Below, piece after piece: positions 7,046-63,498 of a stretch of 64,000 nt of DNA; position 1 is the stretch's first letter, and each line of letters begins with the position of its first letter. The position numbers and the translations under genes are program-made. The stretch is from NCBI RefSeq assembly GCF_030028105.1, contig NC_092376.1, forward strand, positions 158,936,212 through 159,000,211. The letters are read 5' to 3'. Under the pieces are notes generated by a model. It saw only the letters and a list, made by a program, of their open reading frames with translations, searched no databases and was not told the origin of the DNA. The stretch is from Mobula birostris. Its lineage: Eukaryota.

Positions 7046-9624
7046 TAGAACCATAGAAACTACAGCACAGAAACAGGCCCTTTGGCCCTTCTTGGCTGTG
7101 CCGAACCATTTTCTGCCTAGTCCCACTGACCTGCACACGGACCATATCCCTCCATACACCTCCCATCCATGTATCTGTCCAATTTATTCTTAAATGTTAA
7201 AAAAGAACCCTCATTTACCACCTCGTCTGGCAGCTCATTCCATACTCCCACCACTCTCTGTGTGAAGAAGCCCCCCCTAATGTTCCCTTTAAACTTTTCC
7301 CCCCTCACCCTTAACCCATGTCCTCTGGTTCTTTTCTCCCCTTGCCTCAGTGGAAAAAGCCTGCTCACATTCACTCTATCTATACCCATCATAATTTTAT
7401 ATACCTCTATCAAATCTCCCCTCATTCTTCTACGCTCTAGGGAATAAAGTCCTAACCTATTCAACCTTTCTCTGTAACTGAGTTTCTCAAGTCCTGGCAA
7501 CATCCTTGTAAACCTTCTCTGCACTCTTTCAACCTTATTTATATCCTTCCTGTAATTTGGTGACCAAAACTGAACACAATACTCCAGATTCGGCCTACCA
7601 ATGCCTTATACAACCTCATCATAACATTCCTGCTCTTATACTGAATACTTCGATTAATAAAGGCCAATATACCAAAAGCTCTCTTTACGACCCTATCTAC
7701 CTGTGACGACACTTTTAGGGAATTTTGTATCTGTATTCCCAGATCCCTCTGTTCCACTGCACTCCTCAGTGCCTTACCATTAACCCTGTATGTTCTACGT
7801 TGGTTTGTCCTTCCAACGTGCAATACCTCACACTTGTCAGTATTAAACTCCATCTGCCATTTTTCAGCCCATTTTTCCAGCTGGTCCAAGTCCCTCTGCA
7901 GGCTCTGAAAACCTTTCTCACTGTCTACTACACCTCCAATCTTTGTATCATCAGCAAACTTGCTGATCCAATTTACCACATTATCATCCAGATCATTGAT
8001 ATAGATGACAAATAACAATGGACCCAGCACTGATCCCTGTGGCACACCACTAGTCACAGGCCTCCACTCAGAGAAGCAATTCTCTACCACCACTCTCTGG
8101 CTTCTTCCGTCGAGCCAATGTCTAATCCAATTTACCACCTCTCCATGTATACCTAGCGACTGAATTTTCCTAACTAACCTCCCATGCGGGACCTTGTCAA
8201 AGGCCTTACTGAAGCCCATGTAGACAATATCCACTGCCTTCCCTTCATCCACTTTCCTGGTAACCTCCTCGAAAAACTCCAACAGATTGGTCAAACATGA
8301 CCTACCACGCACAAAGCCATGTTGACTCTCCCTAATAAGCCCCTGTCTATCTAAATGCTTGTAGATTCTGTCTCTTAGTACTCCCTCCAATAACTTACCT
8401 ACTGACGTTAAACTCACCGGCCTATAATTTCCTGGATTACTTTTCAATCCTTTTTTAAACAACGGAACAACATGAGCCACTCTCCAATCCTCTGGCACTT
8501 CACCCGTAGACAGCGACATTTTAAATATTTCTGCCAGGGCCCCCGCAATTTCAACACTAGTCTCCTTCAAGGTCCGAGGGAACACTCTGTCAGGTCCCGG
8601 GGATTTATCCACTTTAATTTTCCTCAAGACAGCAAGCACCTCCTCCTTTTCAATCTGTACAGTTTCCATGGTCTCACTGCTTGATTCCCTCAATTCCATA
8701 GATTTCATGCCAGCTTCCTTAGTAAATACAGACACAAAAAACCTATTTAGGATCTCCCCCATTTCCTTTGGTTCCGCACAAAGCCGACCACTCTGATCTT
8801 CAAGAGGACCAATTTTATCCCTTACAATCCTTTTGCTCTTAATATACTTGTAAAAGCTCTTTGGATTATCCTTCACTTTGACTGCCAAGGCAACCTCATG
8901 TCTTCTTTTTGCCCTCCTGATTTCTTTCTTAAGTATTTTCTTGCACTTCTTATACTCCTCAAGCACCGATTTACCCCCTGTTTCCTATACATTTCATAGA
9001 ACTCCCTCTTCTTCTTTATCAGAGTTGCAATATCCCTTGAGAACCAAGGTTCCTTATTCCTATTCAATTTGCCTTTAATCCTGACAGGAACATACAAACT
9101 CTGCACTCTCAAAATTTCCCCTTTGAAGGCTTCCCACCTACCAATCACATCTTTGCCAGAGAACAACCTGTCCCAATCCACACTTTTTAGATCCTTTCTC
9201 ATTTCTTCAAATTTGGCCTTCTTCCAGTTCAGAACCTCAACCCTAGGACCAGATCTATCCTTGTCCATGAAACTAATGGTGTTATGATCACTGGAACCAA
9301 AGTGCTCTCCTACACAGACTTCTGTCACTTGCCCTAATTCGTTTCCTAACAGGAGATCCAATATTGCATCCCCTCTAGTTGGTCCCTCTATATACTGATT
9401 TAGAAAACTTTCCTGAACACATTTTACAAACTCTAAACCATCTAGACTCCTAACAGTATGGGAGTCCCAATCAATGTATGGAAAATTAAAATCCACTACC
9501 ACCACAACTTTATGTTTCCTGCAGTTGCCTGCTATCTCTCTGCAGATTTGCTCTTCCAAGTCTCGTTGACTATTGGGTAGTCTGTAATACAATCCCACTA
9601 ATGTGGCCATACCTTTCCTGTTTC
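7046..9624 (-). mobile_element. Young 5'-truncated CR1 LINE (ORF2 broken by frameshifts)
   Basis: ORFs 8873-9610, 7539-8966 and 7117-7524 give a partial APE endonuclease and RT (SGVPQGSVLGP, FADD). 3' tail is gtttctat-like. TTCAAT at 7041-7046 and 9622-9627 is a likely TSD. Nearly identical to 14199-16780. Confidence 0.95.
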
Positions 9625-14198: not shown

Positions 14199-17198
14199 TA
14201 GAAACCATAGAAACTACAGCACAGAAACAGGCCCTTTGGCCCTTCTTGGCTGTGCCGAACCATTTTCTGCCTAGTCCCACTGACCTGCACACGGACCATA
14301 TCCCTCCATACACCTCCCATCCATGTATCTGTCCAATTTATTCTTAAATGTTAAAAAAGAACCCGCATTTACCACCTCGTCTGGCAGCTCATTCCATACT
14401 CCCACCACTCTCTGTGTGAAGAAGCCTCCCCTAATGTTCCCTTTAAACTTTTCCCCCCTCACCCTTAACCCATGTCCTCTGGTTTTTTTCTCCCCTTGCC
14501 TCAGTGGAAAAAGCCTGCTTGCATTCACTCTATCTATACCCATCATAATTTTATATACCTCTATCAAATCTCCCCTCATTCTTCTACGCTCCAGGGAACA
14601 AAGTCCTAACCTATTCAACCTTTCTCTGTAACTGAGTTTCTCAAGTCCCGGCAACATCCTTGTAAACCTTCTCTGCACTCTTTCAACCTTATTTATATCC
14701 TTCCCATAATTTGGTGACCAAAACTGAACACAATATTCCAGATTCGGCCTCACCAACCTCATCATAACATTCCAGCTCTTATACTCAATACTTCGATTAA
14801 TAAAGGCCAATGTACCAAAAGCTCTCTTTACGACCCTATCTACCTGTGACGACACTTTTAGGGAATTTTGTATCTGTGCTCCCAGATCCCTCTGTTCCAC
14901 TGCACTCCTCAGTGCCTTACCATTAACCCTGTATGTTCTACGTTGGTTTGTCCTTCCAATGTGCAATACCTCACACTTGTCAGTATTAAACTCCATCTGC
15001 CATTTTTCAGCCCATTTTTCCAGCTGGTCCAAGTCCCTCTGCAGGCTCTGAAAACCTTCCTCACTGTCTACTACACCTCCAATCTTTGTATCATCAACAA
15101 ACTTGCTGATCCAATTTATCACATTATCATCCAGATCATTGATATAGATGACAAATAACAATAGACCCAGCACTGATCCCTGTGGCACACCACTAGTCAC
15201 AGGCCTCCACTCAGAGAAGCAATTTTCTACCACCACTCTCTGGCTTCTTCCATCGAGCCAATGTCCAATCCAATTTACCACCTCTCCATGTATACCTAGC
15301 GACTGAATTTTCCTAACTAACCTCCCATGCGGGACCTTGTCAAAGGCCTTACTGAAGTCCATGTAGACAATATCCATTGCCTTCCCTTCATCCACTTTCC
15401 TGGTAACCTCCTCGAAAAACTCCAACAGATTGGTCAAACATGACCTACCACGCACAAAGCCATGTTGACTCTCCCTAATAAGCCCCTGTCTATCCAAATG
15501 CTTGTAGATTCTGTCTCTTAGTACTCCCTCCAATAACTTACCTACTACTGACGTTAAACCCACCGGCGTATAATTTCCCGGATTACTTTTCAATCCTTTT
15601 TTAAACAACGGAACAACATGAGCCACTCTCCAATCCTCCAGCACTTCACCCGTAGACAGCGACATTTTAAATATTTCTGCCAGGGCCCGCGCAATTTCAA
15701 CACTAGTCTCCTTCAAGGTCCGAGGGAACACTCTGTCAGGTCCCGGGGATTTATCCACTTTAATTTTCCTCAAGACAGCAAGCACCTCCTCCTTTTCAAT
15801 CTGTATAGTTTCCATGGTCTCACTACTTGATTCCCTCAATTCCATAGATTTCATGCCAGCTTCCTTAGTAAATACAGATGCAAAAAACCTATTTACGATC
15901 TCCCCCATTTTCTTTGGTTCCGCACAAAGCCGACCACTCTGATCTTCAAGAGGACCAATTTTATCCCTTACAATCCTTTTGCTCTTAATATACTTGTAAA
16001 ATCTCTTTGGATTATCCTTCACTTTGACTGCCAAGGCAACCTCATGTCTTCTTTTTGCCCTCCTGATTTCTTTCTTAAGTATTTTCTTGCACTTCTTATA
16101 CTCCTCAAGCTCCTGATTTACCCCCTGTTTCCTATACATTTCATACAACTCCCTCTTCTTCTTTATCAGAGTTGCAATATCCCTTGAGAACCAAGGTTCC
16201 TTATTCCTATTCAATTTGCCTTTAATCCTGACAGGAACATACAAACTCTGCACTCTCAAAATTTCCCCTTTGAAGGCTTCCCACCTACCAATCACATCTT
16301 TGCCAGAGAACAACCTGTCCCAATCCACGCTTTTTAGATCCTTTCTCATTTCTTCAAATTTGGCCTTTTTCCAGTTCAGAACCTCAACCCTAGGACCAGA
16401 TCTATCCTTGTCCATGATCAAATTGAAACTAATGGCGTTATGATCACTGGAACCAAAGTGCTCCCCTACACAGACTTCCGTCACTTGCCCTAATTCGTTT
16501 CCTAACAGGAGATCCAATATTGCATCCCCTCTAGTTGGTCCCTCTATATACTGATTTAAAAAACTTTCCTGAACACATTTTACAAACTCTACACCATCTA
16601 GACCCCTAACAGTATGGGAGTCCCAATCAATGTATGGAAAATTAAAATCCCCTACCACCACAACTTTATGTTTCCTGCAGTTGCCTGCTATCTCTCTGCA
16701 GATTTGCTCTTCCAAGTCTCGTTGACTATTGGGTGGTCTGTATAACAATCCCACTAATGTGGCCATACCTTTCCTGTTTCTCAGCTCCACCCATAAGGAC
16801 TCAGTAGACAAGCCCTCTAATCTGTCCTGCCTGAGCACTGCTGTAATATTTTCCCTAACAAGCAATGCTACTCCCCCACCTTTCACTCCTCTGCCTCGAT
16901 CACATCTGAAACATCGGAACCCCGGAATATTAAGCTGCCAGTCCTGCCCCTCCTGTAGCCAAGTTTCACTAATTGCTACAACATCATAATTCCACGTGTC
17001 AATCCACGCCCTCCACTCATCCACCTTCCCCGCAATACTCCTAGCATTGAAATATATACACCTCAGAAGATTTTTACCACCACTCACAACCTTTCTATCA
17101 GTGGATTTGCTTAAACTTTCAATATCATTTATTTTCACCCCAGCCACACTGTCAGCTCTGGCACTCTGGTTCCCATCCCCCTGCAAATCTAGTTTAAA
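14199..17198 (-). mobile_element. Young CR1 LINE containing all of ORF2 and the 3' UTR, truncated at the ORF1 stop
   Basis: Uninterrupted 971-codon frame and gtttctatggtttcta tail. The 5' end is at TTTAAACTAG. Confidence 0.97.
14271..17186 (-). CDS. CR1 ORF2: APE-type endonuclease plus reverse transcriptase (open frame, probably damaged)
   Basis: Endonuclease motifs YFNARS, ISETW, GDFN, SDH. RT motifs DFSKAFD, SGVPQGSVLG, FVDD. The predicted start is TTG; the first AUG is about 140 codons in. Confidence 0.9.
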   Translation of the reverse strand: MQGDGNQSARADSVAGVKINDIESLSKSTDRKVVSGGKNLLRCIYFNARSIAGKVDEWRAWIDTWNYDVVAISETWLQEGQDWQLNIPGFRCFRCDRGRGVKGGGVALLVRENITAVLRQDRLEGLSTESLWVELRNRKGMATLVGLLYRPPNSQRDLEEQICREIAGNCRKHKVVVVGDFNFPYIDWDSHTVRGLDGVEFVKCVQESFLNQYIEGPTRGDAILDLLLGNELGQVTEVCVGEHFGSSDHNAISFNLIMDKDRSGPRVEVLNWKKAKFEEMRKDLKSVDWDRLFSGKDVIGRWEAFKGEILRVQSLYVPVRIKGKLNRNKEPWFSRDIATLIKKKRELYEMYRKQGVNQELEEYKKCKKILKKEIRRAKRRHEVALAVKVKDNPKRFYKYIKSKRIVRDKIGPLEDQSGRLCAEPKKMGEIVNRFFASVFTKEAGMKSMELRESSSETMETIQIEKEEVLAVLRKIKVDKSPGPDRVFPRTLKETSVEIARALAEIFKMSLSTGEVLEDWRVAHVVPLFKKGLKSNPGNYTPVGLTSVVGKLLEGVLRDRIYKHLDRQGLIRESQHGFVRGRSCLTNLLEFFEEVTRKVDEGKAMDIVYMDFSKAFDKVPHGRLVRKIQSLGIHGEVVNWIGHWLDGRSQRVVVENCFSEWRPVTSGVPQGSVLGLLLFVIYINDLDDNVINWISKFVDDTKIGGVVDSEEGFQSLQRDLDQLEKWAEKWQMEFNTDKCEVLHIGRTNQRRTYRVNGKALRSAVEQRDLGAQIQNSLKVSSQVDRVVKRAFGTLAFINRSIEYKSWNVMMRLVRPNLEYCVQFWSPNYGKDINKVERVQRRFTRMLPGLEKLSYRERLNRLGLCSLERRRMRGDLIEVYKIMMGIDRVNASRLFPLRQGEKKTRGHGLRVRGEKFKGNIRGGFFTQRVVGVWNELPDEVVNAGSFLTFKNKLDRYMDGRCMEGYGPCAGQWD

Positions 17199-18497
17199 GC
17201 TAGATTCTGTACTATTCTACAAATAAGAATCAGCAAAGCAGTCTGAACATCTTGCAGCTCTTTATTATATTGTAATTAAGTTCTTTGAAGCCATGCATCA
17301 CCCCAGCACAGTTCTTACACATCTGCTAGATTTAGATGTGCGCTGGTAATAGATAGTAAATTTTGTGAGTAGGGCAGGGTAACTCAAAGCATGAAATCCT
17401 TGGAAGATTATAAACTGATATGGGATATACAAATGCAGAACACTCCATGGTCTCACTGTTTAGAATGTTTTATGCCTGTATAGAATAGAGGTTTACTTGT
17501 AAGTTTTCCATTTCTAAAAATAAGATTCGAAAATACATGGTGGATTTCTTTGGGAGATTTAAATATTTCCATGTAATGTTTAACAAATGTGCAATGATAT
17601 TAAACTTCCCAACGTGGCAAATTGGAGGAAACAAAATTGCTGATGTATGTTTAAAAACAGATCATTCTTGGTGGTATTTAGAAGAGTTCCGAATGAGATG
17701 TATGTGCTAGCAGACTCTTACATCCACTTCTAAGTAAGGAGAATAAAGTTAAAGAATTATCGCTGGCACTAGTAATTTGCGTAGAAACGTAAAAAATGTT
17801 GTCAGACATGTGTTCTCTGTTCCAATTCTAATGAAGGATTCATGGTTGAAAATTTACAGTACTTTTTAAATTAACTGTCTTACTAAGCATTTTGAATGCT
17901 TCAGTTTGCTTCATCTTTCCACTGCATTGAGTTTTGGCTACCAGTTCAGAATGAACAAATAAGGATTGGGATTATCCCATCAAAAGCATTTAGGATTAGT
18001 CAGTGATTTAAATTTTGTGGGTATTTCAGAGTCATATTTCAAAAGGGTTTTGTCAAAAATACATTCTTACATAGAATGCATCTCTTGGAGCCACCAACTC
18101 CCATTAAATATTGAATCTATTATGAGTTTTTCCAGGCAGTCCACCCTAATCCCAAATCTAAATTATTTAGAGGATGAACGAAAGTTCTGATCTCCCTCTC
18201 CCACTGAGGGAAGGTTTGAAGAAGTGAAAAGGTGGCTGTTTTGCTTGATGCACAGAATTATTTTTCAAGAAAAGATCTCAATTTTATGCTAATAATATTT
18301 CCCATGAAACTGTCATCAGCTTTGTGTTATCCATATGGAAGCACTAGAGTATTGATAACTATTACAAATGTCTTAGAGTTGTGTTGTCTATCACAAATGT
18401 CTTGGAGCTGTGATGTCTATCTCAATGTATTGCCGTGCTGGACAGAGAATGTGATTTTGCTTTATACTTCTCTGCTGCTTGGAGGTGTAAATTTGGA

Positions 18498-34012: not shown

Positions 34013-35260
34013 ATACTTTATACTTTATTGTCGCCAAACAATTGATACTAGAACGTACAATCATCACAGCGATATTTGATTCTGCGCTTCCTGCTCCCTG
34101 GATTACAAATCGATAGTAAATATTAAAAATTTAAATTATAAATCATAAATAGAAAATAGAAAAATGGAAAGTAAAGTAGTACAAAAAAACCGAGAGGCAT
34201 GTCTGGATATTTGGAGGGTACGGCCCAGATCTGAGTCAGGATCTGTTCAGCAGTCTTATCATAGTTGGAAAGAAGCTGTTCCCAAATCTGGTCGTACGAG
34301 TCTTCAAGCTCCTGAGCCTTCTCCAAGAGGGAAGAGGGACAAAAAGTGTGTTGGCTGGGTGGGTCGTGTCCTTGATTATCCTGGCAGAACTGCTCCAACA
34401 GCGTGTGGTGTAAACTGAGTCCAAGGATGGAAGATTGGTTTGTGTGATGTGCTGCGCTGTGTTCACGGTTTTCTGCAGCTTCTTCCGGTCTTGGACAGGA
34501 CAACTTCCATACGAGGTTGTGATGCACCCTAGAAGAATGCTTTCTACGGTGCATCTATAAAAATTAGTGAGGGTTTTAGGGGATAGGCCAAATTTCTTTA
34601 GTTTTCTCAGGAAGAAAAGCGCTAGTGGGCCTTCTTGGCAGTGGACTCTGCTTGGTTGGACCAAGTCAGGTCATTTGTGATATTGACCCTGAAGAACTTA
34701 AAGCTTTTGATCTGTTCCACTTGCGTACCACCGATGTAAATTGGGTCGTGCGGTCCGCTACTCCTTCTGAAGTCAACAACCAATTCCTTCGTCTTGCTGA
34801 CATTGAGGGATAGGTTATTGTCTTCGTACCATGCCACCAGGTTTTTAATTTCCTCTCTGTACTCAAACTCATCATTACCCGAGATACGGCCTACAGTTGT
34901 TGTGTCATCAGCAAACTTATATATTGAGTTCGATGGAAACTTGGCTGCACAACCATGGGTGTACAGTGAGTACAGCAGAGGGCTGAGTACACAGCCTTGT
35001 GGGGCACTGGTGCTCAGAGTGATTGTAGAGGAGAGCTTGTCCCCTATTTTTACAGCCTGGGTTCTGTATGTCAGGAAGTTGAAGATCCAGCTGCAAATAT
35101 GAGTGCTAAGGCCCAGGTTCCGGAGCTTAGGAATCAGTTTATTTGGAATGATGGTATTAAAGGCAGAGCTGTAGTCAATGAAAAGGAGCCTTACGTATGC
35201 GTCTTTATCCTCCAGGTGTTCTAAGGAGGAATGTAGGGCCAAAGAGATGGCATCTGCCAT
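34013..35260 (-). mobile_element. Rex1/Babar LINE (5'-truncated) inserted in L1 ORF2
   Basis: [45 protein letters not shown]; tail aataaagtataaagtat. L1 reads ..RINTIK before the insert and ILPKFLY after it. Confidence 0.92.
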
Positions 35261-35551
35261 CTTCACCTTAATAGTATTAATTCGACCAATCAAAGATAAG
35301 GACAATGGGGACCATTTAGTAAACAGTTGTTTAACATGATTAATTAAGGGCAAAAGATTAACTTCAAATAAATCCGTATGCTTCTCAGTAATTTTAACAC
35401 CCAAAGAAGTAAAATAATCAGTAACTAATCTAAATAGTGATTGTCTATTAATTGGAACTTCCATATTTAATGGAAAAAGCACACACTTATCAAGATTCAG
35501 TATATAACCAAAAAAACTACTGAACTGAGCAAATAGTGTTATTACTGCAGG

Positions 35552-36774
35552 CACAAGGAAATCTGCAGATACTGGAAATTCAAGCAATACACCTTAAAAG
35601 TGCTGGTGAACGCAGCAGGCCAGGCAGCATCTCTAGGAAGAGGTAGAGTTGACGTTTCAGACAGGGACCCTTCGTCAGGACTAACTGAAAGAAGAGATAG
35701 TAAGAGATTTGAAAGTGGGAGGGGGAGGGGGAGATCCGAAATGATAGGAGAAGACAGGAGGGGGAGAGTGGATCTAAGAGCTGGAAAAGGGAAAGGATCA
35801 TGGGACAGGAAGCCTGGGGAGAAAGAGAAGTGGAGAGGGTGGAGAGCAGGCAAGGAGTTATAGTAAGAGGGACAGAGGGAGAAAAAATTGAGAGAGAGAA
35901 AAAAGGGGTGGAAAATAAAAAAATATATAAAATAAATAAATAAGGAATGAGGTGTGAAGGGGAGGAGGGGAATTAAAGGAAGTTTGAGAAGTCAATGTTC
36001 ATGCCATCAGGTTGGAGGCTACCCAGATGGAATATAAGGTGTTGTTCCTCCAACCTGAGTGTGGCTTCATCTTGACAGTAGAGGAGGCTGTGGATAGACA
36101 TATCAGAATGGGAATGGGACATGGAATTAAAATGTGTGGCCACTAGGAGATCCTGCTTTCTCTGGCAGACGGAGCGTAGGTATTCAGCGAAACGGTCTCC
36201 CAGCCTGCGTTGGGTCTCGCCAATATATAGAAGGCCGCACCAGATGCAGTATATCACCCCAGCCGACTTACAGGTGAAATGTCGCCTCACCTGGAAGGAC
36301 TGTCTGGGCCCCTGAGTGGTGGTGAGGGAGGAAGTGTAAGGGCATGTGTAGCACTTGTTCCACTTACAAGGAAAAGTGCCGGGAGAGAGATCGGTGGGAA
36401 GGGATGGGGGGGTATGAATGGATAAAGGAGTCGCGTAGGAAGTGATCCCTGTTTAAAGCAGAAAGGGGGGCGTACGGAAAGATGTGCTTGTTGGTGGGAT
36501 CCCGTTGGAGGTGGCGGGAGTTACGGAAAATTATATGTTGAACCCGGAGGTTGGTGGGGTGGTAGGTTAGGACAAGGGGAACTCTATTCCTAGTGGGGTG
36601 GCGGGAGGATGGAGTGAGAGCAGATGTGCGTGAAATGGGAGAGATGTGTTTGAGAGCAGAGTTGATGTTGGAGGAAGGGAAGCCTCTTTCTTTATAAAAG
36701 GAAGAACATCTCATTCATCCTGGAATGAATAGCCTCATCCTGAGAGCAGATGCAGCGGAGACAGAGGAATTGCA
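35552..36774 (-). mobile_element. Penelope-like element (GIY-YIG endonuclease plus terminal repeat) inserted in L1 RT
   Basis: ORF 35973-36290 has FTC...VIYCIWC..LYIGET.RRL..RFAE...E..LIF.LGSLQP.GMN. The L1 frame rejoins as SNPEKSM|[11 protein letters not shown] when the insert is removed. Confidence 0.92.
35647..35683 (-). ncRNA. Minimal type I hammerhead ribozyme motif in the Penelope-like terminus
   Basis: The minus strand reads agtc CTGACGA agggtccctgtct GAAAC GTC aact: complete CUGANGA/GAAA/NUH core with short stems. Minimal hammerheads are known from Penelope-like elements. Confidence 0.7.
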
Positions 36775-39700
36775 CATGGATTTCTCTGGGTTAGGAATAT
36801 ATAGTAACAGGTCATCTGCATATAGTGATACTTTATGCATCCCATTCCCATGAATAATGTCAAATATATAGGTGAATCAGGGATAGCAATTTGCCAAGGG
36901 CTCCAGGGCAATATCAAAAAGTAAAGGGCTTACAGGACAGCCCTGCCTAGTACCTTGAAAAAGCCTAAAAAACGGGGATCTCTGATTATTGGTAAATACA
37001 GCAGCTGGAGGTGTACGATATATCAGTTGAATCCAGGATATAAACTTTGAGCTGAAATTAAATTTCTTAAGTATATCAAATAAATATTCCCATTCAAGTC
37101 TGTCAGATGCCTTCTTGGCGTCAAGCAAAATAACACATTCTGGTGTTTTAATTGAAGTGGTGTATACAATGTTCATTAGCCTCCTAATATTAAAATGCGA
37201 GTAATGATTTTTAATAAATCCTGTCTGATCTTCGGAGACAATTTGTGGTGGTACCTTCTCTATTCTAATTGCTAATATTTTGGAAAAGATTTTAGAATCT
37301 ACATTCAACAAAGGTATAGATCTATATGATGCACATTCAGTGGGATCTTTATCTTCTTTAAGAATTAATGAGATAGATGCTTTATAAAATGATTGTGGTA
37401 ATTTACCTACAGATAAGGCATCTTTAAAAATTCTACGTAACCAGGGAGAAAGTACGTCTGAAAAAGGTTTATAAAATTCAACTGTATACCCATCTGGGCC
37501 AGGTGTTTTACCAGAATTCATCGAAAAAATTGCTTTCTTTATTTCCTCTTCAGTAATGGGTGCATCTAATGTTAAACATTCATCAGCTGGTAATTTCAGA
37601 ATATTTAGTTTCCTTAAAAATTCATGCATTATGGTAAGATCATCAGGAAATTCTGATTGATATATAGTGGTATAAAATTCTTGAAAAGATTTATTAATTT
37701 CATCATGGTCAACCGTCAAATTACCTTCCTGTCTACGAACTTTATTAATCTGACGTTTCGCCAAAGCAGCTTTCAATTAGCCAGTAACTTACTCGATTTA
37801 TCACCATGTATGTAAAATTGACTCTTAGTTTTAAGGAATTGATTTTCAATCAGGGCTGTTAATAAACTATGTTGCATCTGAAGTTCAACTCTCTATAAAG
37901 CTACAAATTAGGAGCAATAGAATACTTTTTATCAATTTCTTTAATCTTATCAGCCAATGTACGTATTTCACTATTAATACATTTTTTCACTCCAGCAGAG
38001 TATGAAATAATTTGCCCACAGATATATACTTCAAAGGTATCCCATAATATCTCACTGGAAATTTCTTCCATTGAGTTAGATGAAAAGAAAAATGCAATCT
38101 GTTCTTCAATAAAATTATCAAAATTTAAATCTTGAAGCAAAATAGAATTGAACCGCCATTGTCTAGTACTAAAAATTGCATCCCTAAATTTAATTGATAA
38201 TTTCAAAGGCGCATAGTTGGAAATGGCGATTGTATCATACTCACAGGTAGTGACAAATGAAACTAATTGAGAATCAATAAAGAAGTAATCGATTCTAGAG
38301 TAATTATGATATACATGAGAAAAGAAAGAGAACTCTTTATCATTAGGATCTAAAAACTTCCAAACATCTAAAATTCCTGCATCAACTAAAAAGGAATTAA
38401 TAAAAATAGCAGATTTGTTTGGATGTGCCTGATTGGGTGCAGACCTATCCATCATAGGATTCAAACAACAGTTAAAATCATCGCCCATTATTAACATATA
38501 TTCATTTAAATTGGGAAGAGATACAAATAAATGCTTAGAGAATTCAGGATAATTTAATTTGATGCATAAACATTAACCAAAACTACTTTTTGGTTATAAA
38601 GTAAACCAGTAATTAATAGAAATCTACTATATGGGCCTGCGATTATATCATGACGAACAAATGAGATTGAAGAATCTATAAAAATGGAAACACCTTTCAC
38701 TTTGGTCGATGAGTTTGAATGAACTATTCTTCTTTCCAAAACCTAAAAAGAACGCTGATTATCCTCCTTCCTCACGAGTCTCCTCCACAAAAATAATCTG
38801 AGCATTCAATCTATAAAAAACTTTAAAAATCTTCTTCCGTTTAATTGGATGGTTCAAACCATTCATGTTCCATGAAACAAAGTTAATAATATTATTCATT
38901 TTCCTTAAATAAACCATATGGTAAGTAAAGGGTTAACCAAATTGTACTATAAACCCAAGAATCAGAAAGAGGAACAAAAGTTTAAAGAGGAACCGGAAGT
39001 TATGACAATACAGACATTTTTCGTAGTTTCAAGTCAACCCAAGTGAAAAATACTAAAGTAAAAGTAACCTCCTCCCCTCCCAGAGCCCCGAAACTTGGCC
39101 AATAGGCAGCCAGTAAACTGTCTAAGAACCACCCAATCACCATCTCTCTTGACGGCAAGTCTCCAATTCTAAAAAAATTAAAATAAAAACCACCCATAGT
39201 CTAAACATTGTGAAAGGAATGCCTATTACAGTTAGATGAAAAAAAAATCAACCCTTTACAGACCATTTTAAAAAACCTGGTCTTAAGAAATAAAACAGAG
39301 TACAATCTTAATAATATTTCAAGAAAAATAGAAAAAAAACATAGAGCAGACATAAGTGAAAACGAAGTACCAGAGGACTCAGCCCAAGGGCAAAGCTCTA
39401 CGAACTTAAAATGTCTGAATCTATAAGCTGGTTATTAACTAATAAACCAGGTGTATACAAACTTAAAGGAATGGTAAATTAATTAAACATCCAAACTCAA
39501 AAGAATGTTCTTCAAGAAATTGTTGTGCAACCTCCACGGATTTAAACCATTTAAACGAATTACTGGGTAAAACAACTCTTAAGCGGGTGAGTTATAGCAG
39601 CGCTGGTCGAAAATTCCTTTGATGTAGTTCCAACATCACCGATTTAAAACACGAACTTTCTTGCAATACCTCAGGGCAATAATCTTCAACCAAACGAAAC

Positions 39701-41171: not shown

Positions 41172-42450
41172 TCAGTCCTGTGCAGTAGCCCCGCCCCCCC
41201 CATACCAGATAGTGATGTAGCCTGTCAGAATGCTCTCCATGATACACCTATAGAAATTTTTGAGTGTATTTATTGACATGCCAAATCTCTTCAAACCCCT
41301 AATGAAGTACAGTTGCTGTCTTGCCTTCTTTATAACTGCATCGATATGTTGGGACCAAGTTAGATCCTCATAGATCTTGACACCCAGGAACTGGAAACTG
41401 CTCACTCTCTCCACTCCTGATTCCTCTATGAGGATTGGTATGTGTTCCTTCATCTTATCCATCCTGAAGTCCACAATCAACTCTTTTGTCCTACTGACAT
41501 TGAGTGCAAGGTTGTTGCTGTGACACCACTCCACTAGTTGGTATATCTCACTCCTGTACGCTCCCTCGTCTCCATCTGAGATTCTACCAACAATGGTTGT
41601 ATCATCAGCAAATTTATAGATGGCATTTGAGCTAGCCTAGCTACACAGTCATGGGTATAGAGAGTAGAGCAGTGGGCTAAACATACACCCCTGAGGTGTA
41701 CCAGAGTTGATCGTCAGCGAGGAGGAGATGTTATCACCAATCCGCACAGATCGTGGTCTTCCAGTTGGAAAGTCAAGGATCCAATTGCAGAGGGAGGTAC
41801 AGAGACCCAGGTTCTATAACTTCTCAGTCAGGATTGTGGGAATGATGGTATTAAATGCTGAGCTATAGTCAATGAACAGCATCCTGACATAGGTGTCTGT
41901 ATTGTCCAGGTGGTCTAAGGCCTGTGAGGAGCTATCTGCCATTGACCTATTGTGGCGATAGGCAAATTGCAATTGGTCCAGATCCTTGCTGAGGCAGGAG
42001 TTCAGTCAAGTCATGACCAACCTCTCAAAGCATTTCATCACTGTAAATGTGAGTGCTACCAGGCCATAGTCATTAAGGCATCTCATACTATTCTTCTTAG
42101 GCACTGGTATAATTGTTGCCTTTTTGAAGCAAGTGGGAACTTCTGCTTGTAGCAGTGAGGGGTTGAAAATGTCCCTGAATACTCTCACCAGTTAGTTGGC
42201 AAAGGTTTTTAGAGCCTTACCAGGTACTCCAACGGGACCTTCCACCTTGTGAGGGTTCACTCTCTTTAAAGACAGACTAACATCGGCCTCTGAGACAGAG
42301 ATCACAGGGTTATCAAGTGCAGCAGGGATCTTCACAGCTGTAGTTGTGTTCTCCCTTTCAAAACGTGCATAGAGGGCATTGAGTTCATCTGGTAATGAAG
42401 CATCACTGCCATTCATACTATTGGGTTTTGCTTTGTTGGAAGTAATTTCT
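41172..42450 (-). mobile_element. Rex1/Babar LINE RT fragment
   Basis: LPDELNALYARFE; [24 protein letters not shown]; WC..NNLALNVSRTKELIVDFR. Confidence 0.9.
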
Positions 42451-43373
42451 CTTGCAACCCACAATCTCACTATTCCTCTCTGCCACCTCAGCAAATTAAT
42501 TCCATTCATCCTCGAACAAAGTTCTCCTTGTCACTTCCTCACTCTCAAGTCTTGAGAAAAACATTGGGGGGTAAAAAAGAAAAATTGCATAGTTTTGACC
42601 AAAGCTTCTAGGATTTAATATTCACTCTCTGGTCCAGTTGTCTGTTTTCTTTCTTTTAAGTTACTTGTTAACACCATCACATCTCCCTCATTATTACTTG
42701 GTTTTGTTACCAATTTAGTTTAATAATGTGAAGTGCCTTAGGCTGTAGTATAATGTTAAAAGCTCCATAAACCCAAACTTCTATTCTTATTACTAAAGTG
42801 GGACTGTATTGCTTTAAGCCTGCACTGTAAAGAAAATTACAGGTCCAAATGTAGTAGATTTAAAGGACCATTTTAACTGCCCGGCACTCTGTTTCTACTG
42901 ACGGTGATTGCTTGCACATTCCTTTAACTTTTACTTCCTGCTTAATTCAATCATTTCCTTTCATTCTGCACTTGTTAGTGACTCCTAAGATGTTTCTCTC
43001 CGCTTCCACTTTTTTTTCTCTGCTTTACAAATTACAAAATTCATTTCCTGTGATTGATATTTTTTCATGGAATATATAGTATATTATTCAAAAAGCGCTT
43101 TTGGGCATCTTTTATATTTCTAGCATTCAGCTAAAAATTCTGTCAAAAGTGCCATCAGTTTCAGGGTTTATCTGTGAATGCAGAAGGCCACAGCTTGCTG
43201 GCTGCTTTCTGACAATCATTTCCAGATTGTACTCCAACACTGGACTGTGCAGTACCTCACCTCATGGGATCAGACCAGCCAAGAAGTGCAATTTGAAAAT
43301 GGTGGATCAGCAAAAGGTAAATTCAGTGGTGAATATGTGCAACGTCACCGGGTCAGGAATCCTTTGTTTTGAA

Positions 43374-61745: not shown

Positions 61746-62505
61746 CAGTGTTTACTTCACAGTAGGAAGTGGTACAGAGAAAGGAAGGGCATTCTTATGT
61801 CAGCTGTTATATTAGGTTTGCTGTAATCTTTCAAATTAAAGTATTTGACCACAGAATAAGAAATCTGTTTTTTCCATCCTTTACTAAAATTTCATGGTCA
61901 AGATTAGTGATAATACTGCATAGTGGGGTTTAAACTAAGGTTGTAGGGGGATGGGAACCAGAGTGCTTGAACAGTTATTGGAGATGTTGGTAAGGCCTCA
62001 GGCAAAGTCAGGAATCAAAAGGGTGAGCATGCTGCGACTAGTGTCCTGAGTTGTGTATATTTCAATGCAAGAAGTATCGTAGGAAAGGCAGATACGCTCA
62101 GGGCATGGATCGGATCAACACGTGAAATTATGACATTGCAGCCATTAGTGAGACTTGGCTGCAGGAGAGGCAGGACTGGCAGCTCAATATCCCAGGGTTT
62201 TGTTGTTTTAGGCGTGACAGAGCAGGACGGATTAAAGGAGGAGGTTTGGAAAATGCCATGGCAGTGGTCTGTCAGAACAGACTGGAGAACTTGACTACTG
62301 AGGTATTGTGGGTGGAATCGAGAAACAAGAAAGTTATGACCATGTTAATGGGGGCTATATTACAGCCCCCCCCCCCAACAGCCTGTGGGTTTCAGAGGAA
62401 CAAATTTGTAAAGGGATTGCAGATTGTTTTAAGGTTGCTTTAGTAGGTGATTTTAACTTTCCGCACATTGACTGGAAATCCCATACTGTAAAAGGACTAG
62501 ATGGC

Positions 62506-63498
62506 TGCTCCCAACTGCAGCTCTTCCATTTCACACATGTCGGCTCTTACCCCATCCTCCCACCACCCTACCAGGGATAGGGTTCCTCTTGTCCTCACCT
62601 ACTACCCCACCAGCCTCTGCACCCAGCACATGAAGCTTCCGCCACCTCCAGTAGGATCTCACCACCAAGCACATCTTTCTGTCCTCCCACTTTCTGCAGG
62701 GATCGCTCCCTACGTGACTCCCTTGTCCATTCTACCTTCCCCACTGATCTCCCTCCTAGCACTTATCCTTGCAAGTGAAACAAATACTACACCTGCCCCT
62801 ACCCCTCCTCCCTCGCTACCATTCAGGGCCCTAAACAGTCCTTCCAGGTGAGGTGACACTTCACCTGTGAATCTGCTAGGTCATAGTCTGCGTCTGGTGC
62901 TTCCGGTGTGACCTCCTTCTACTGGTGAGACCCGACGTAGATTAGGAGACCACTTTGCTGAGGACCTACACTCCATCTGTCAGAAAAAGTGGGATCTCCC
63001 GGTGACCACCCATTTTAATTTCATTTTCCGTTCCCATTCTGATATGCCTATCCATGGCCTCCTCTACTGTCGTGATGAGGCTACATTTAAGTTGGAGGAG
63101 CAACATCTTTTGTTCCGTTTGGGTAGCCTCCAACCTGATGTGATGAACATCAATTTCTCAAACTTCCTTTCATGTTCCCCCCTCACCATTTCTCATCCCC
63201 TTTTCCCTATCTCACCTTATCTCCTTGCATGCCCACCAACTCCCTCCAGTGCTCCTCACCCCTTTTCTTCCTTCCTTGGCATTCTGTCTCTTTCACCAAT
63301 CAACTTCCCAGTTCTTTACTTCATCCCTCCTCCTTCAGGTTTCGCCTATCACCTTGTGTTTCTCTCTCCCCTCCCCCACCTTTTAAATCTGATCATCGGC
63401 TTTTTTTTTGCAGTCCTGCCGAAGGATTTTGGCCTGAAACGTCGACAATACTCTTTTCCATAGATGCTGCCTGGCCTGCTGAGTTCCTCCAGCATTTT
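62506..63498 (+). mobile_element. Penelope-like element with 9-bp TSD
   Basis: GIY-YIG C-terminus HFNF..HSDM.IHGLLYC..LEEQHLLFRLGSLQP. CTAGATGGC at 62497-62505 and 63499-63507. Confidence 0.92.
63411..63446 (+). ncRNA. Hammerhead motif variant (A6C core change)
   Basis: cagtc CTGCCGA AGG attttgg CCT GAAAC GTC GAC. Stems I and II pair, but the core CUGA reads CUGC. Confidence 0.55.

What the first reader, a model, noticed from the sequence alone, without database searches (positions are those of the whole stretch)
17184..17198. Canonical -1 frameshift heptamer (U UUA AAC) at the CR1 ORF1-stop/ORF2 junction, with an AUG-less ORF2
Seen: the minus strand reads T TTA AAC TAG (17198-17189). The -1 frame TTT AAA CTA GAT TTG CAG runs without a stop into the 971-codon ORF2, and its first AUG comes only about 140 codons later, after the endonuclease N-terminal motifs. 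The diverged copy at 61929-61938 keeps the same TTTAAAC+stop in the same phase relative to ORF2, preceded by an overlapping second heptamer G GGT TTA. Established: UUUAAAC is the X XXY YYZ slippery site used by coronaviruses. I recall CR1 ORF1 proteins ending ..LN*, but ORF1 itself is not in this window. Inference: these LINEs may make an ORF1-ORF2 fusion by programmed -1 frameshifting, unlike L1 reinitiation. I see no convincing downstream pseudoknot, only a G-rich tract (GGGGGATGGG), and I cannot say whether this is already published.
Basis: partly seen in the sequence, partly recalled or inferred. Interest (0 to 1): 0.75.

Follow-up and report, generated by a model that had tools for sequence, protein, structure and literature searches.

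The report
Ancient slippery site joins CR1 genes
A common jumping gene (a CR1-type LINE) ends its first gene with the seven-letter slippery sequence that coronaviruses use, relatives from sharks to birds end that gene the same way, and ribosomes likely slip back one base there to make the second, copying protein as a fusion, which has not been tested.

Summary
Confirmed. T TTA AAC TAG lies at 17198-17189 (-), and ORF2 is open from it in the -1 frame with no AUG for 144 codons. Copy 2 (61929) has the same junction. ORF1 is missing from the window, but 530 and 605 contigs of this family run on into an ORF1-like end in phase with Leu-Asn-stop. ORF1 ends Leu-Asn-stop in rays, sharks, coelacanth, frogs, turtles, lizards, birds and distant unnamed families (201 of 376 proteins). 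The residue before it takes 14 forms, all codable by NNT, never K/E/Q/M/W: the mark of a fixed U UUA AAC. A G-run follows 7 nt after the stop. No conserved pseudoknot was found, so it fails one mark of a canonical signal. Several families have AUG, GUG or UUG just after the stop, so reinitiation stays a real rival. Best reading: programmed -1 frameshifting (about 0.65), untested. Ten paper searches found no CR1 report, but the classic CR1 papers were not readable. This scan noted the same junction in other genomes (e1-8041403, e1-9568866).

The parts
17192..17198 (-). Slippery heptamer T TTA AAC (X XXY YYZ), the last two codons of ORF1 plus the base before
   Evidence: sequence; ORF1 phase from family contigs and related loci
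17189..17191 (-). ORF1 stop codon TAG, directly after the heptamer
17161..17188 (-). 7-nt spacer (holding an in-frame TTG at 17186), G-run 17181-17172 and rest of the block shared between subfamilies
   Evidence: 22-nt identical stretch in the two copies; other subfamilies leave the reference at 17157 and 17162; same G-run spacing in 7 of 10 bird-like junctions with sequence there
14271..17198 (-). ORF2 (endonuclease + reverse transcriptase), open in the -1 frame from the heptamer; first ATG at 16766
14199..17200 (-). Copy 1 of the CR1-like LINE, 5'-truncated within about 2 nt of the heptamer; short TTCTATGG-type 3' tail; possible 4-nt target duplication TCTA (17204-17201 and 14202-14199)
   Evidence: depth falls to single-copy above 17211; ends; upstream reading scores like random sequence against ORF1 ends
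61926..61938 (+). Copy 2 junction: G GGT TTA overlapping T TTA AAC, then TAA
61939..63999 (+). Copy 2 G-run (61946-61950) and decayed ORF2 5' part, interrupted at about 62505-63497 by another repeat
7049..9624 (-). Copy 3, 96.9% identical to copy 1, truncated inside the endonuclease (no junction)

Best explanation
The site is the conserved ORF1/ORF2 junction of an esterase-type CR1 LINE, and it likely works as a programmed -1 ribosomal frameshift signal that would make ORF2 as an ORF1-ORF2 fusion. Shown: ORF1 ends x-Leu-Asn-stop on T TTA AAC TAR; ORF2 is open from the heptamer in the -1 frame; the -1 frame is closed a few codons upstream; a G-run follows 7 nt after the stop. Inferred: most ribosomes stop and release ORF1p. 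A minority, with UUA and AAC in the P and A sites, slip to UUU AAA and go on Leu-Asn | Leu-Asp-Leu-Gln-Gly through a 37-108 codon linker into the endonuclease and reverse transcriptase. That would set a high ORF1p to ORF2p ratio, as Gag to Gag-Pol. The stimulator is the weakest step: not a pseudoknot, more likely the unstructured G-run (protein-bound or a weak G-quadruplex), perhaps helped by the adjacent stop.
For: (1) Phase: at 17198, 530 of 8996 laid contigs (run X1) and 605 of 8158 (X5) continue into a shared sequence. Read by hand on the minus strand it gives an ORF1-type end (G-R-F-A-S-A-A-G-G-G) in phase with L-N-stop, and a -1 frame stop 6 codons before the TTT (agreement only 0.54-0.55). 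Ray and shark ORF1 proteins end the same way. (2) Breadth: L-N-stop ends 108 of 118 ORF1 proteins that reach the last helix (259 examined), 55 of 61 in the close set and 39 of 47 in the distant set (71 and 49 examined). Named hosts include rays, sharks, Latimeria, Xenopus, turtles, lizards and birds. (3) Tied to the stop, not the fold: the distance from DGxHL to the end is 22-39 residues, mostly 26 or 39, yet LN stays last. Loach proteins of the ZfL2-1 type end RTI or RTA. (4) Nucleotide signature: the residue before LN takes 14 forms, all codable by NNT, and is K/E/Q/M/W in 0 of 201. On a tree of 127 of 196 tails it changes 39 times, never into these five, against 77 of 291 changes at positions -4 to -12 (naive P 6e-6). 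D, N and R occur; E, Q and K do not. (5) DNA: in 11 bird-like junctions the last Leu is TTA in 10 of 10 Leu codons, while Leu at -10 and -7 uses 4 and 3 codons. (6) The -1 frame opens only 1-2 codons before the TTT in 9 of those 11, so F-K-L cannot come from an upstream AUG there. (7) -1 readings F-K-L-x-x-[K/Q/L]-G occur in 16 gene models from birds, a ray, a lizard and unnamed families (18 pattern hits less 2 unrelated ones). Two of them are copies in which ORF1 runs on through this peptide into the endonuclease (P0398, P0530). (8) U_UUA_AAC is listed among the shiftiest mammalian -1 heptamers (PMC5009743, passage).
Against: No 3' structure: folds of both copies are no more stable than shuffles (z -0.40 to +1.33), the alignment of 11 junctions has 0 predicted pairs, and G-quadruplex folding gave none, although G4Hunter 1.12 is in the top 2.6% of the element. 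Start codons sit right after the stop in many copies: ATG in 3, GTG or TTG in 5, TCG in 2 of 10 bird-like junctions, TTG in both window copies. Two Hypanus gene models begin at a Met-Gly-Gly-Gly that likely maps to the G-run (P0001, P0575). The endonuclease motif is in the -1 phase in only 6 of 10 junctions where it was found; the other 4 are decayed copies. The codon control is not clean: Ile, Val, Phe and Gln columns nearby are also single-codon, and the 11 junctions come from only 4 assemblies, 7 from one. No variant of 5% or more is listed at 17155-17198, but none is listed at 17024-17098 either and 7 rows were not shown, so that gap proves little. Gene models are biased to open frames. 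No RNA, ribosome or protein data were seen.
Confidence: 0.65

Rival explanations
1. Termination-reinitiation. Ribosomes stop at the ORF1 stop and restart 2-5 nt later at an AUG or near-cognate codon (UUG here); the heptamer and G-run are a conserved coupling signal and ORF2p is a separate protein, as inferred for L1.
For: NTG stands 2 nt after the stop, in the ORF2 frame, in 8 of 10 bird-like junctions and both window copies. A restart there also explains the -1 phase and the open linker. L1 ORF2 is reported to be made by an AUG-independent initiation (PMC5009743; PMC1965478, passages).
Against: The residue at that codon is S, A, V, L, N, R, P, G or C in gene models; N, C, S, A, P and G cannot be NTG codons, so a start codon is not kept across families. 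Reinitiation does not predict an exact X XXY YYZ in ribosomal phase upstream of the stop, nor the NNT rule.
Confidence: 0.22
2. Non-translational RNA or DNA element (binding site for ORF1p, ORF2p or a host protein, a splice or transcription signal) that happens to overlap the ORF1 stop; ORF2 is made by some other route.
For: The conserved block is nucleotide-level and runs about 30 nt past the stop. Both window copies that reach it end at or near it.
Against: It would not need a fixed codon phase to both ORFs. A 3' splice site (CTAG) fails in copy 2, which has TAA. No Rfam family matches the block.
Confidence: 0.07
3. Protein-level constraint only: ORF1p needs a free C-terminal Leu-Asn, and the codons are shared by descent.
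For: LN is near-invariant at protein level; the DNA sample is small and related.
Against: It cannot explain why the variable residue before LN avoids only those residues that lack a T-ending codon, nor F-K-L in the other frame, nor the G-run 7 nt after the stop.
Confidence: 0.04
4. Polymerase slippage adds one base at the T3A3 run or the upstream G-run, so that some transcripts carry a fused frame.
For: Family contigs show a G-run of variable length just upstream (loose ends).
Against: The runs are short, and bird-like junctions have GCT with no upstream G-run.
Confidence: 0.02

Closest known systems
Coronavirus (IBV) U_UUA_AAC -1 frameshift site
   Same: Identical heptamer, in the same ribosomal phase, joining an upstream ORF to a -1 frame polymerase ORF (heptamer in PMC5009743, passages).
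   Different: No pseudoknot or stem-loop 3' of the site; the ORF1 stop follows at once; cellular retrotransposon, not a virus; untested.
Retroviral and plant-virus shift sites followed directly by the stop (RSV gag-pol, BYDV; recalled, no call)
   Same: Heptamer then stop; structural protein in excess over a fused polymerase.
   Different: Those have proven RNA-structure stimulators; none found here.
Arterivirus nsp2 shift site stimulated by nsp1beta with PCBP (PMC5009743, passage)
   Same: A model for an unstructured motif at fixed distance after a slippery site.
   Different: The motif there is C-rich (recalled) and a protein partner is known; here it is G-rich and no partner was tested.
Mammalian L1 ORF2 translation; Candida Zorro3
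   Same: Bicistronic LINE RNA with an ORF2 for endonuclease and reverse transcriptase; L1 tolerates loss of the ORF2 AUG.
   Different: Their ORFs do not overlap; here ORF2 is open from inside ORF1 in the -1 frame at a slippery heptamer.
Other non-LTR elements with proposed frameshifts: Drosophila HeT-A gag, Paramecium groups 1-2, Dictyostelium TRE5-A
   Same: Frameshifting in non-LTR elements has been stated for HeT-A gag and proposed for Paramecium ORF2 (+1 or reinitiation, PMC5405496).
   Different: Other clades and, for Paramecium, the other direction. The TRE5-A -1 claim comes from earlier scan notes; I did not find it in three Dictyostelium papers searched by word.
ZfL2-1 type esterase LINEs of teleost fish (PDB 4C1B)
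   Same: Same SGNH esterase ORF1 (E 2.5e-38).
   Different: Loach proteins of this type end RTI or RTA, without Leu-Asn, so they lack this junction.

Membership tests
CR1-clade LINE (vertebrate type) | ORF2 with APE endonuclease followed by reverse transcriptase | tested here: met
   Pfam PF03372/PF14529 and PF00078; best hit a Hypanus protein at 72%
CR1-clade LINE (vertebrate type) | ORF1 with SGNH esterase upstream of ORF2 | tested here: inconclusive
   Absent from the window; only 30 letters of family sequence upstream were seen, and they read like ray ORF1 ends
CR1-clade LINE (vertebrate type) | 3' end of short repeats, not poly(A); heavy 5' truncation (3' end type recalled; truncation in PMC4316615) | tested here: met
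   TTCTATGG-type tails in copies 1 and 3, both truncated
CR1-clade LINE (vertebrate type) | Placement in the CR1 clade on a reverse-transcriptase tree | not tested
   No RT tree was built; the label CR1 rests on similarity and on recalled features, and no call names these proteins CR1
Canonical programmed -1 frameshift signal | X XXY YYZ heptamer in the phase of the upstream ORF | tested here: met
Canonical programmed -1 frameshift signal | Downstream ORF open from the site in the -1 frame | tested here: met
   975 codons in copy 1; open to the endonuclease in L003 and L006; out of phase in 4 of 10 decayed junctions
Canonical programmed -1 frameshift signal | Heptamer conserved beyond amino-acid need | tested here: met
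Canonical programmed -1 frameshift signal | Pseudoknot or stem-loop 5-9 nt after the heptamer | tested here: not met
   so it is not filed as a canonical member, only as working like one
Canonical programmed -1 frameshift signal | Measured trans-frame product that depends on the heptamer | not testable with these tools
   no ribosome profiling, proteomics or reporter data
Termination-reinitiation (L1 or stop-start type) | Usable start codon within a few nt of the upstream stop, kept across relatives | tested here: inconclusive
   ATG in 3 of 10 and GTG/TTG in 5 of 10 bird-like junctions, TTG in both window copies; not kept in gene models of other families
Termination-reinitiation (L1 or stop-start type) | Separate ORF2 protein with its own N-terminus | not testable with these tools
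   needs protein data

The most novel reading that the evidence does not exclude
Esterase-type CR1 LINEs across jawed vertebrates, and in more distant unnamed families, make a Gag-Pol-like ORF1p-ORF2p fusion by -1 frameshifting at an invariant U UUA AAC that is stimulated not by a pseudoknot but by an unstructured G-run fixed 10 nt downstream (protein-bound or quadruplex): a cellular recoding signal of a new build, older than the shark-bony fish split.
Probability: 0.35. Interest if true: 0.85.

Novelty: new variant of a known kind. Interest (0 to 1): 0.68.

Why it matters
How LINEs translate ORF2 from a two-gene RNA is an open question; the 2016 frameshifting review calls the L1 route unknown and names no CR1 case in the part held. 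A fixed, one-base-testable signal shared by CR1 elements from rays to birds makes that question testable with a simple reporter. If right, CR1 ORF2p carries ORF1p at its N-terminus, so gene models that start ORF2 at a later AUG are wrong, ORF1p would be needed in cis by design, and a frameshift stimulator without a pseudoknot would be on hand.

Tried and rejected
No host genome was held, so no genome-wide copy survey. Viral contigs gave no relative in 3 scans; plasmids and phages none; genome contigs gave 2 loci without a junction; a handle search covered 1 of 5 loci and found nothing. Raw-read runs X21 and X22 laid 0 reads. A 13-bp long-range duplex between the block and 16478-16460 was rejected: 12 of 39 control blocks reach 13 bp, and it is not the best partner in the three other loci where that motif was found. 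A bird-like hairpin about 30 nt downstream is missing in the window copies. The ATG in GGGGGATGGG is in the ORF1 frame and meets a stop after 13 codons. The 44-nt variant-free gap was not used as evidence. Rfam gave two weak hits in the flank, far below cut-off. A bacterial promoter scan is irrelevant and empty. Rows dropped: of 36 loci, 11 gave a junction; L005 ends short, L020 lacks it, L022 and L033 were misaligned. L007 was mis-registered and counted as a miss there, and left out. P0042 and P0095 were dropped from the FKL list as unrelated matches. Papers: ten searches listed no paper on CR1 frameshifting. Word-search passages only were read in PMC11835228, PMC5009743 (first 300,000 of 449,034 characters held), PMC3905857, PMC1965478, PMC4700185, PMC5405496, PMC6515669, PMC4255032, PMC5633606, PMC3159450 (no passage matched), PMC4316615 and PMC5006619; no supplements were opened. 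Haas 1997, Kapitonov and Jurka 2003 and a 2011 Dictyostelium review were not held; they, the turtle CR1 paper of 1997 (recalled) and Repbase notes may already mention the overlap or a frameshift.
Full report
Observation. The minus strand at 17198-17189 reads T TTA AAC TAG. The frame that begins at the TTT is open for 975 codons (971 from the TTG at 17186) and encodes an endonuclease and a reverse transcriptase. Its first ATG is at 16766, after the first endonuclease motifs. A second, decayed copy has TTTAAAC TAA at 61929-61938 in the same phase, with G GGT TTA overlapping it. The heptamer alone is common in the window (29 times), but the two copies start to align exactly at it and share a 22-nt identical G-rich stretch after it. 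The closest named protein is from the ray Hypanus sabinus, 72% identical. The label CR1 rests on similarity and recalled features; no RT tree was built.

Is ORF1 in phase? ORF1 is not in the window. Copy 1 is cut within about 2 nt of the heptamer: depth falls to single-copy above 17211 and its upstream reading scores like random sequence against ray ORF1 ends. Copy 2 may keep a few codons (fraction of random windows as good: 0.03-0.15). Contigs of two public runs supply the missing part. At 17198, 530 of 8996 laid contigs in X1 and 605 of 8158 in X5 continue into a shared sequence (agreement 0.54-0.55). Read by hand on the minus strand it gives G-R-F-A-S-A-A-G-G-G in phase with L-N-stop, with a stop in the -1 frame six codons before the TTT. 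Ray and shark ORF1 proteins end in the same kind of helix. Other subfamilies leave the reference at 17157 and 17162 (131-182 contigs each), so the shared block is about 40 nt long.

How wide is it? ORF1 relatives were collected in three searches. L-N-stop ends 108 of the 118 that reach the last helix among 259 examined, and 55 of 61 and 39 of 47 in the close and distant sets of the third search (three proteins are shared with the first count). In all, 201 of 376 end in LN; many of the rest are fragments. Named hosts are rays, sharks, Latimeria, two frogs, three turtles, four lizards and many birds; a Callorhinchus protein has LN plus one residue. Unnamed families only about 41-45% identical add up to 13 residues of tail and still end in LN, whereas loach proteins of the ZfL2-1 type end RTI or RTA. 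So LN goes with the stop, not with the fold.

Is the DNA held beyond protein need? If the base before TTA must be T, the residue before LN may vary but can never be K, E, Q, M or W. It takes 14 forms and is none of these in 201 proteins. On a tree of 127 of 196 tails it changes 39 times and never into those five, against 77 of 291 changes at positions -4 to -12. The naive P is 6e-6. My thinning rule kept sequences that differ at this position, and some positions avoid these residues for structural reasons (2 of 28 at -7), so the figure is a guide only. Still, D, N and R occur and E, Q and K do not. DNA was scarce: 11 junctions from 36 loci and 4 assemblies. There the last Leu is TTA in 10 of 10, Asn AAC in 7 of 7, Ala GCT in 9 of 9, while two nearby Leu columns use 3-4 codons; but four other columns are also single-codon. 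The -1 frame opens only 1-2 codons before the TTT in 9 of 11. A G-run begins 7 nt after the stop in 7 of the 10 with sequence there and in both window copies. Sixteen gene models read the junction in the -1 frame as F-K-L-x-x-[K/Q/L]-G, with 37-108 codons to the endonuclease where measured; in P0398 and P0530 ORF1 runs through it into ORF2.

What speaks against a frameshift? There is no stimulatory structure: single folds are at shuffle level, the joint fold has no pairs, and a long-range duplex is at chance level. The G-run scores 1.12 by G4Hunter, top 2.6% of the element, but was not folded as a quadruplex. Start codons are often at hand: ATG in 3, GTG or TTG in 5 of 10 bird-like junctions, and TTG in both window copies, all 2 nt after the stop in the ORF2 frame. 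Four of 10 junctions have the endonuclease out of phase, in decayed copies. L1 is reported to make ORF2 without needing its AUG. Against that rival, the codon after the stop is not a start codon in many families, and reinitiation gives no reason for an exact slippery heptamer in ribosomal phase.

Mechanism. I put -1 frameshifting at 0.65 and reinitiation at 0.22; the two could coexist where an AUG is present. In the frameshift model most ribosomes stop; some slip from UUA AAC to UUU AAA and continue Leu-Asn then Leu-Asp-Leu-Gln-Gly into ORF2. The anatomy is shown; the slip, its rate, the fusion and the role of the G-run are inferred.

Known or new. The heptamer is the IBV site and among the shiftiest known (PMC5009743). 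Lacking the 3' structure, the site works like a canonical -1 signal but is not filed as one. Frameshifting has been stated or proposed for other non-LTR elements (HeT-A; Paramecium). Ten searches of the open library found no CR1 report, but the founding CR1 papers could not be read, so prior mention is not excluded. Earlier notes of this scan describe the same junction in other genomes; they are not independent proof, and my data soften their statement that ORF2 has no start codon. Verdict: real, deeply conserved, a new variant of a known kind, interest 0.68.

Noticed in passing
window 17200 (-) and about 61900-61929 (+): The only two CR1-like copies in the window that reach the ORF1/ORF2 junction both end at or within a few codons of it. 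This may mark a 5'-truncation hot spot (RNA cut at a paused ribosome, or a reverse-transcriptase stall at the G-runs), or chance.
   Followed up: partly
window 62505-63497 (+) and 35973-36452 (-): A shared, different repeat (open frames of 183 and 159 codons with a GETxRRLGDxFAExL motif, recalled as GIY-YIG/Penelope-like; no Pfam hit); one copy interrupts CR1 copy 2.
   Followed up: no
window 34622-35593, 36877-38572, 41172-42455 (-): Decayed LINEs of other clades (L1/Tx1-like and Rex/RTE-like by recalled motifs; RVT_1 hits).
   Followed up: no
window 7049-9624 (-) and 14199-17200 (-): Two 96.9% identical young copies 4.6 kb apart in the same orientation; copy 1 has a fully open ORF2.
   Followed up: partly
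proteins P0232, P0399, P0577; locus L035: Vertebrate-type CR1 ORF1 or ORF2 sequences filed under bacteria (Klebsiella, Pseudomonas, Aeromonas, Providencia): likely host contamination of assemblies.
   Followed up: no
proteins P0448, P0450, P0456, P0471: Loach ORF1 esterases of the ZfL2-1 type lack the Leu-Asn end, so that lineage either lost or never had the junction signal; a natural control.
   Followed up: partly
L006, L013, L018, L024, about 30 nt after the heptamer: A short inverted repeat (GGCTC...GAGCC type) in some bird-like junctions, absent from the window copies.
   Followed up: partly
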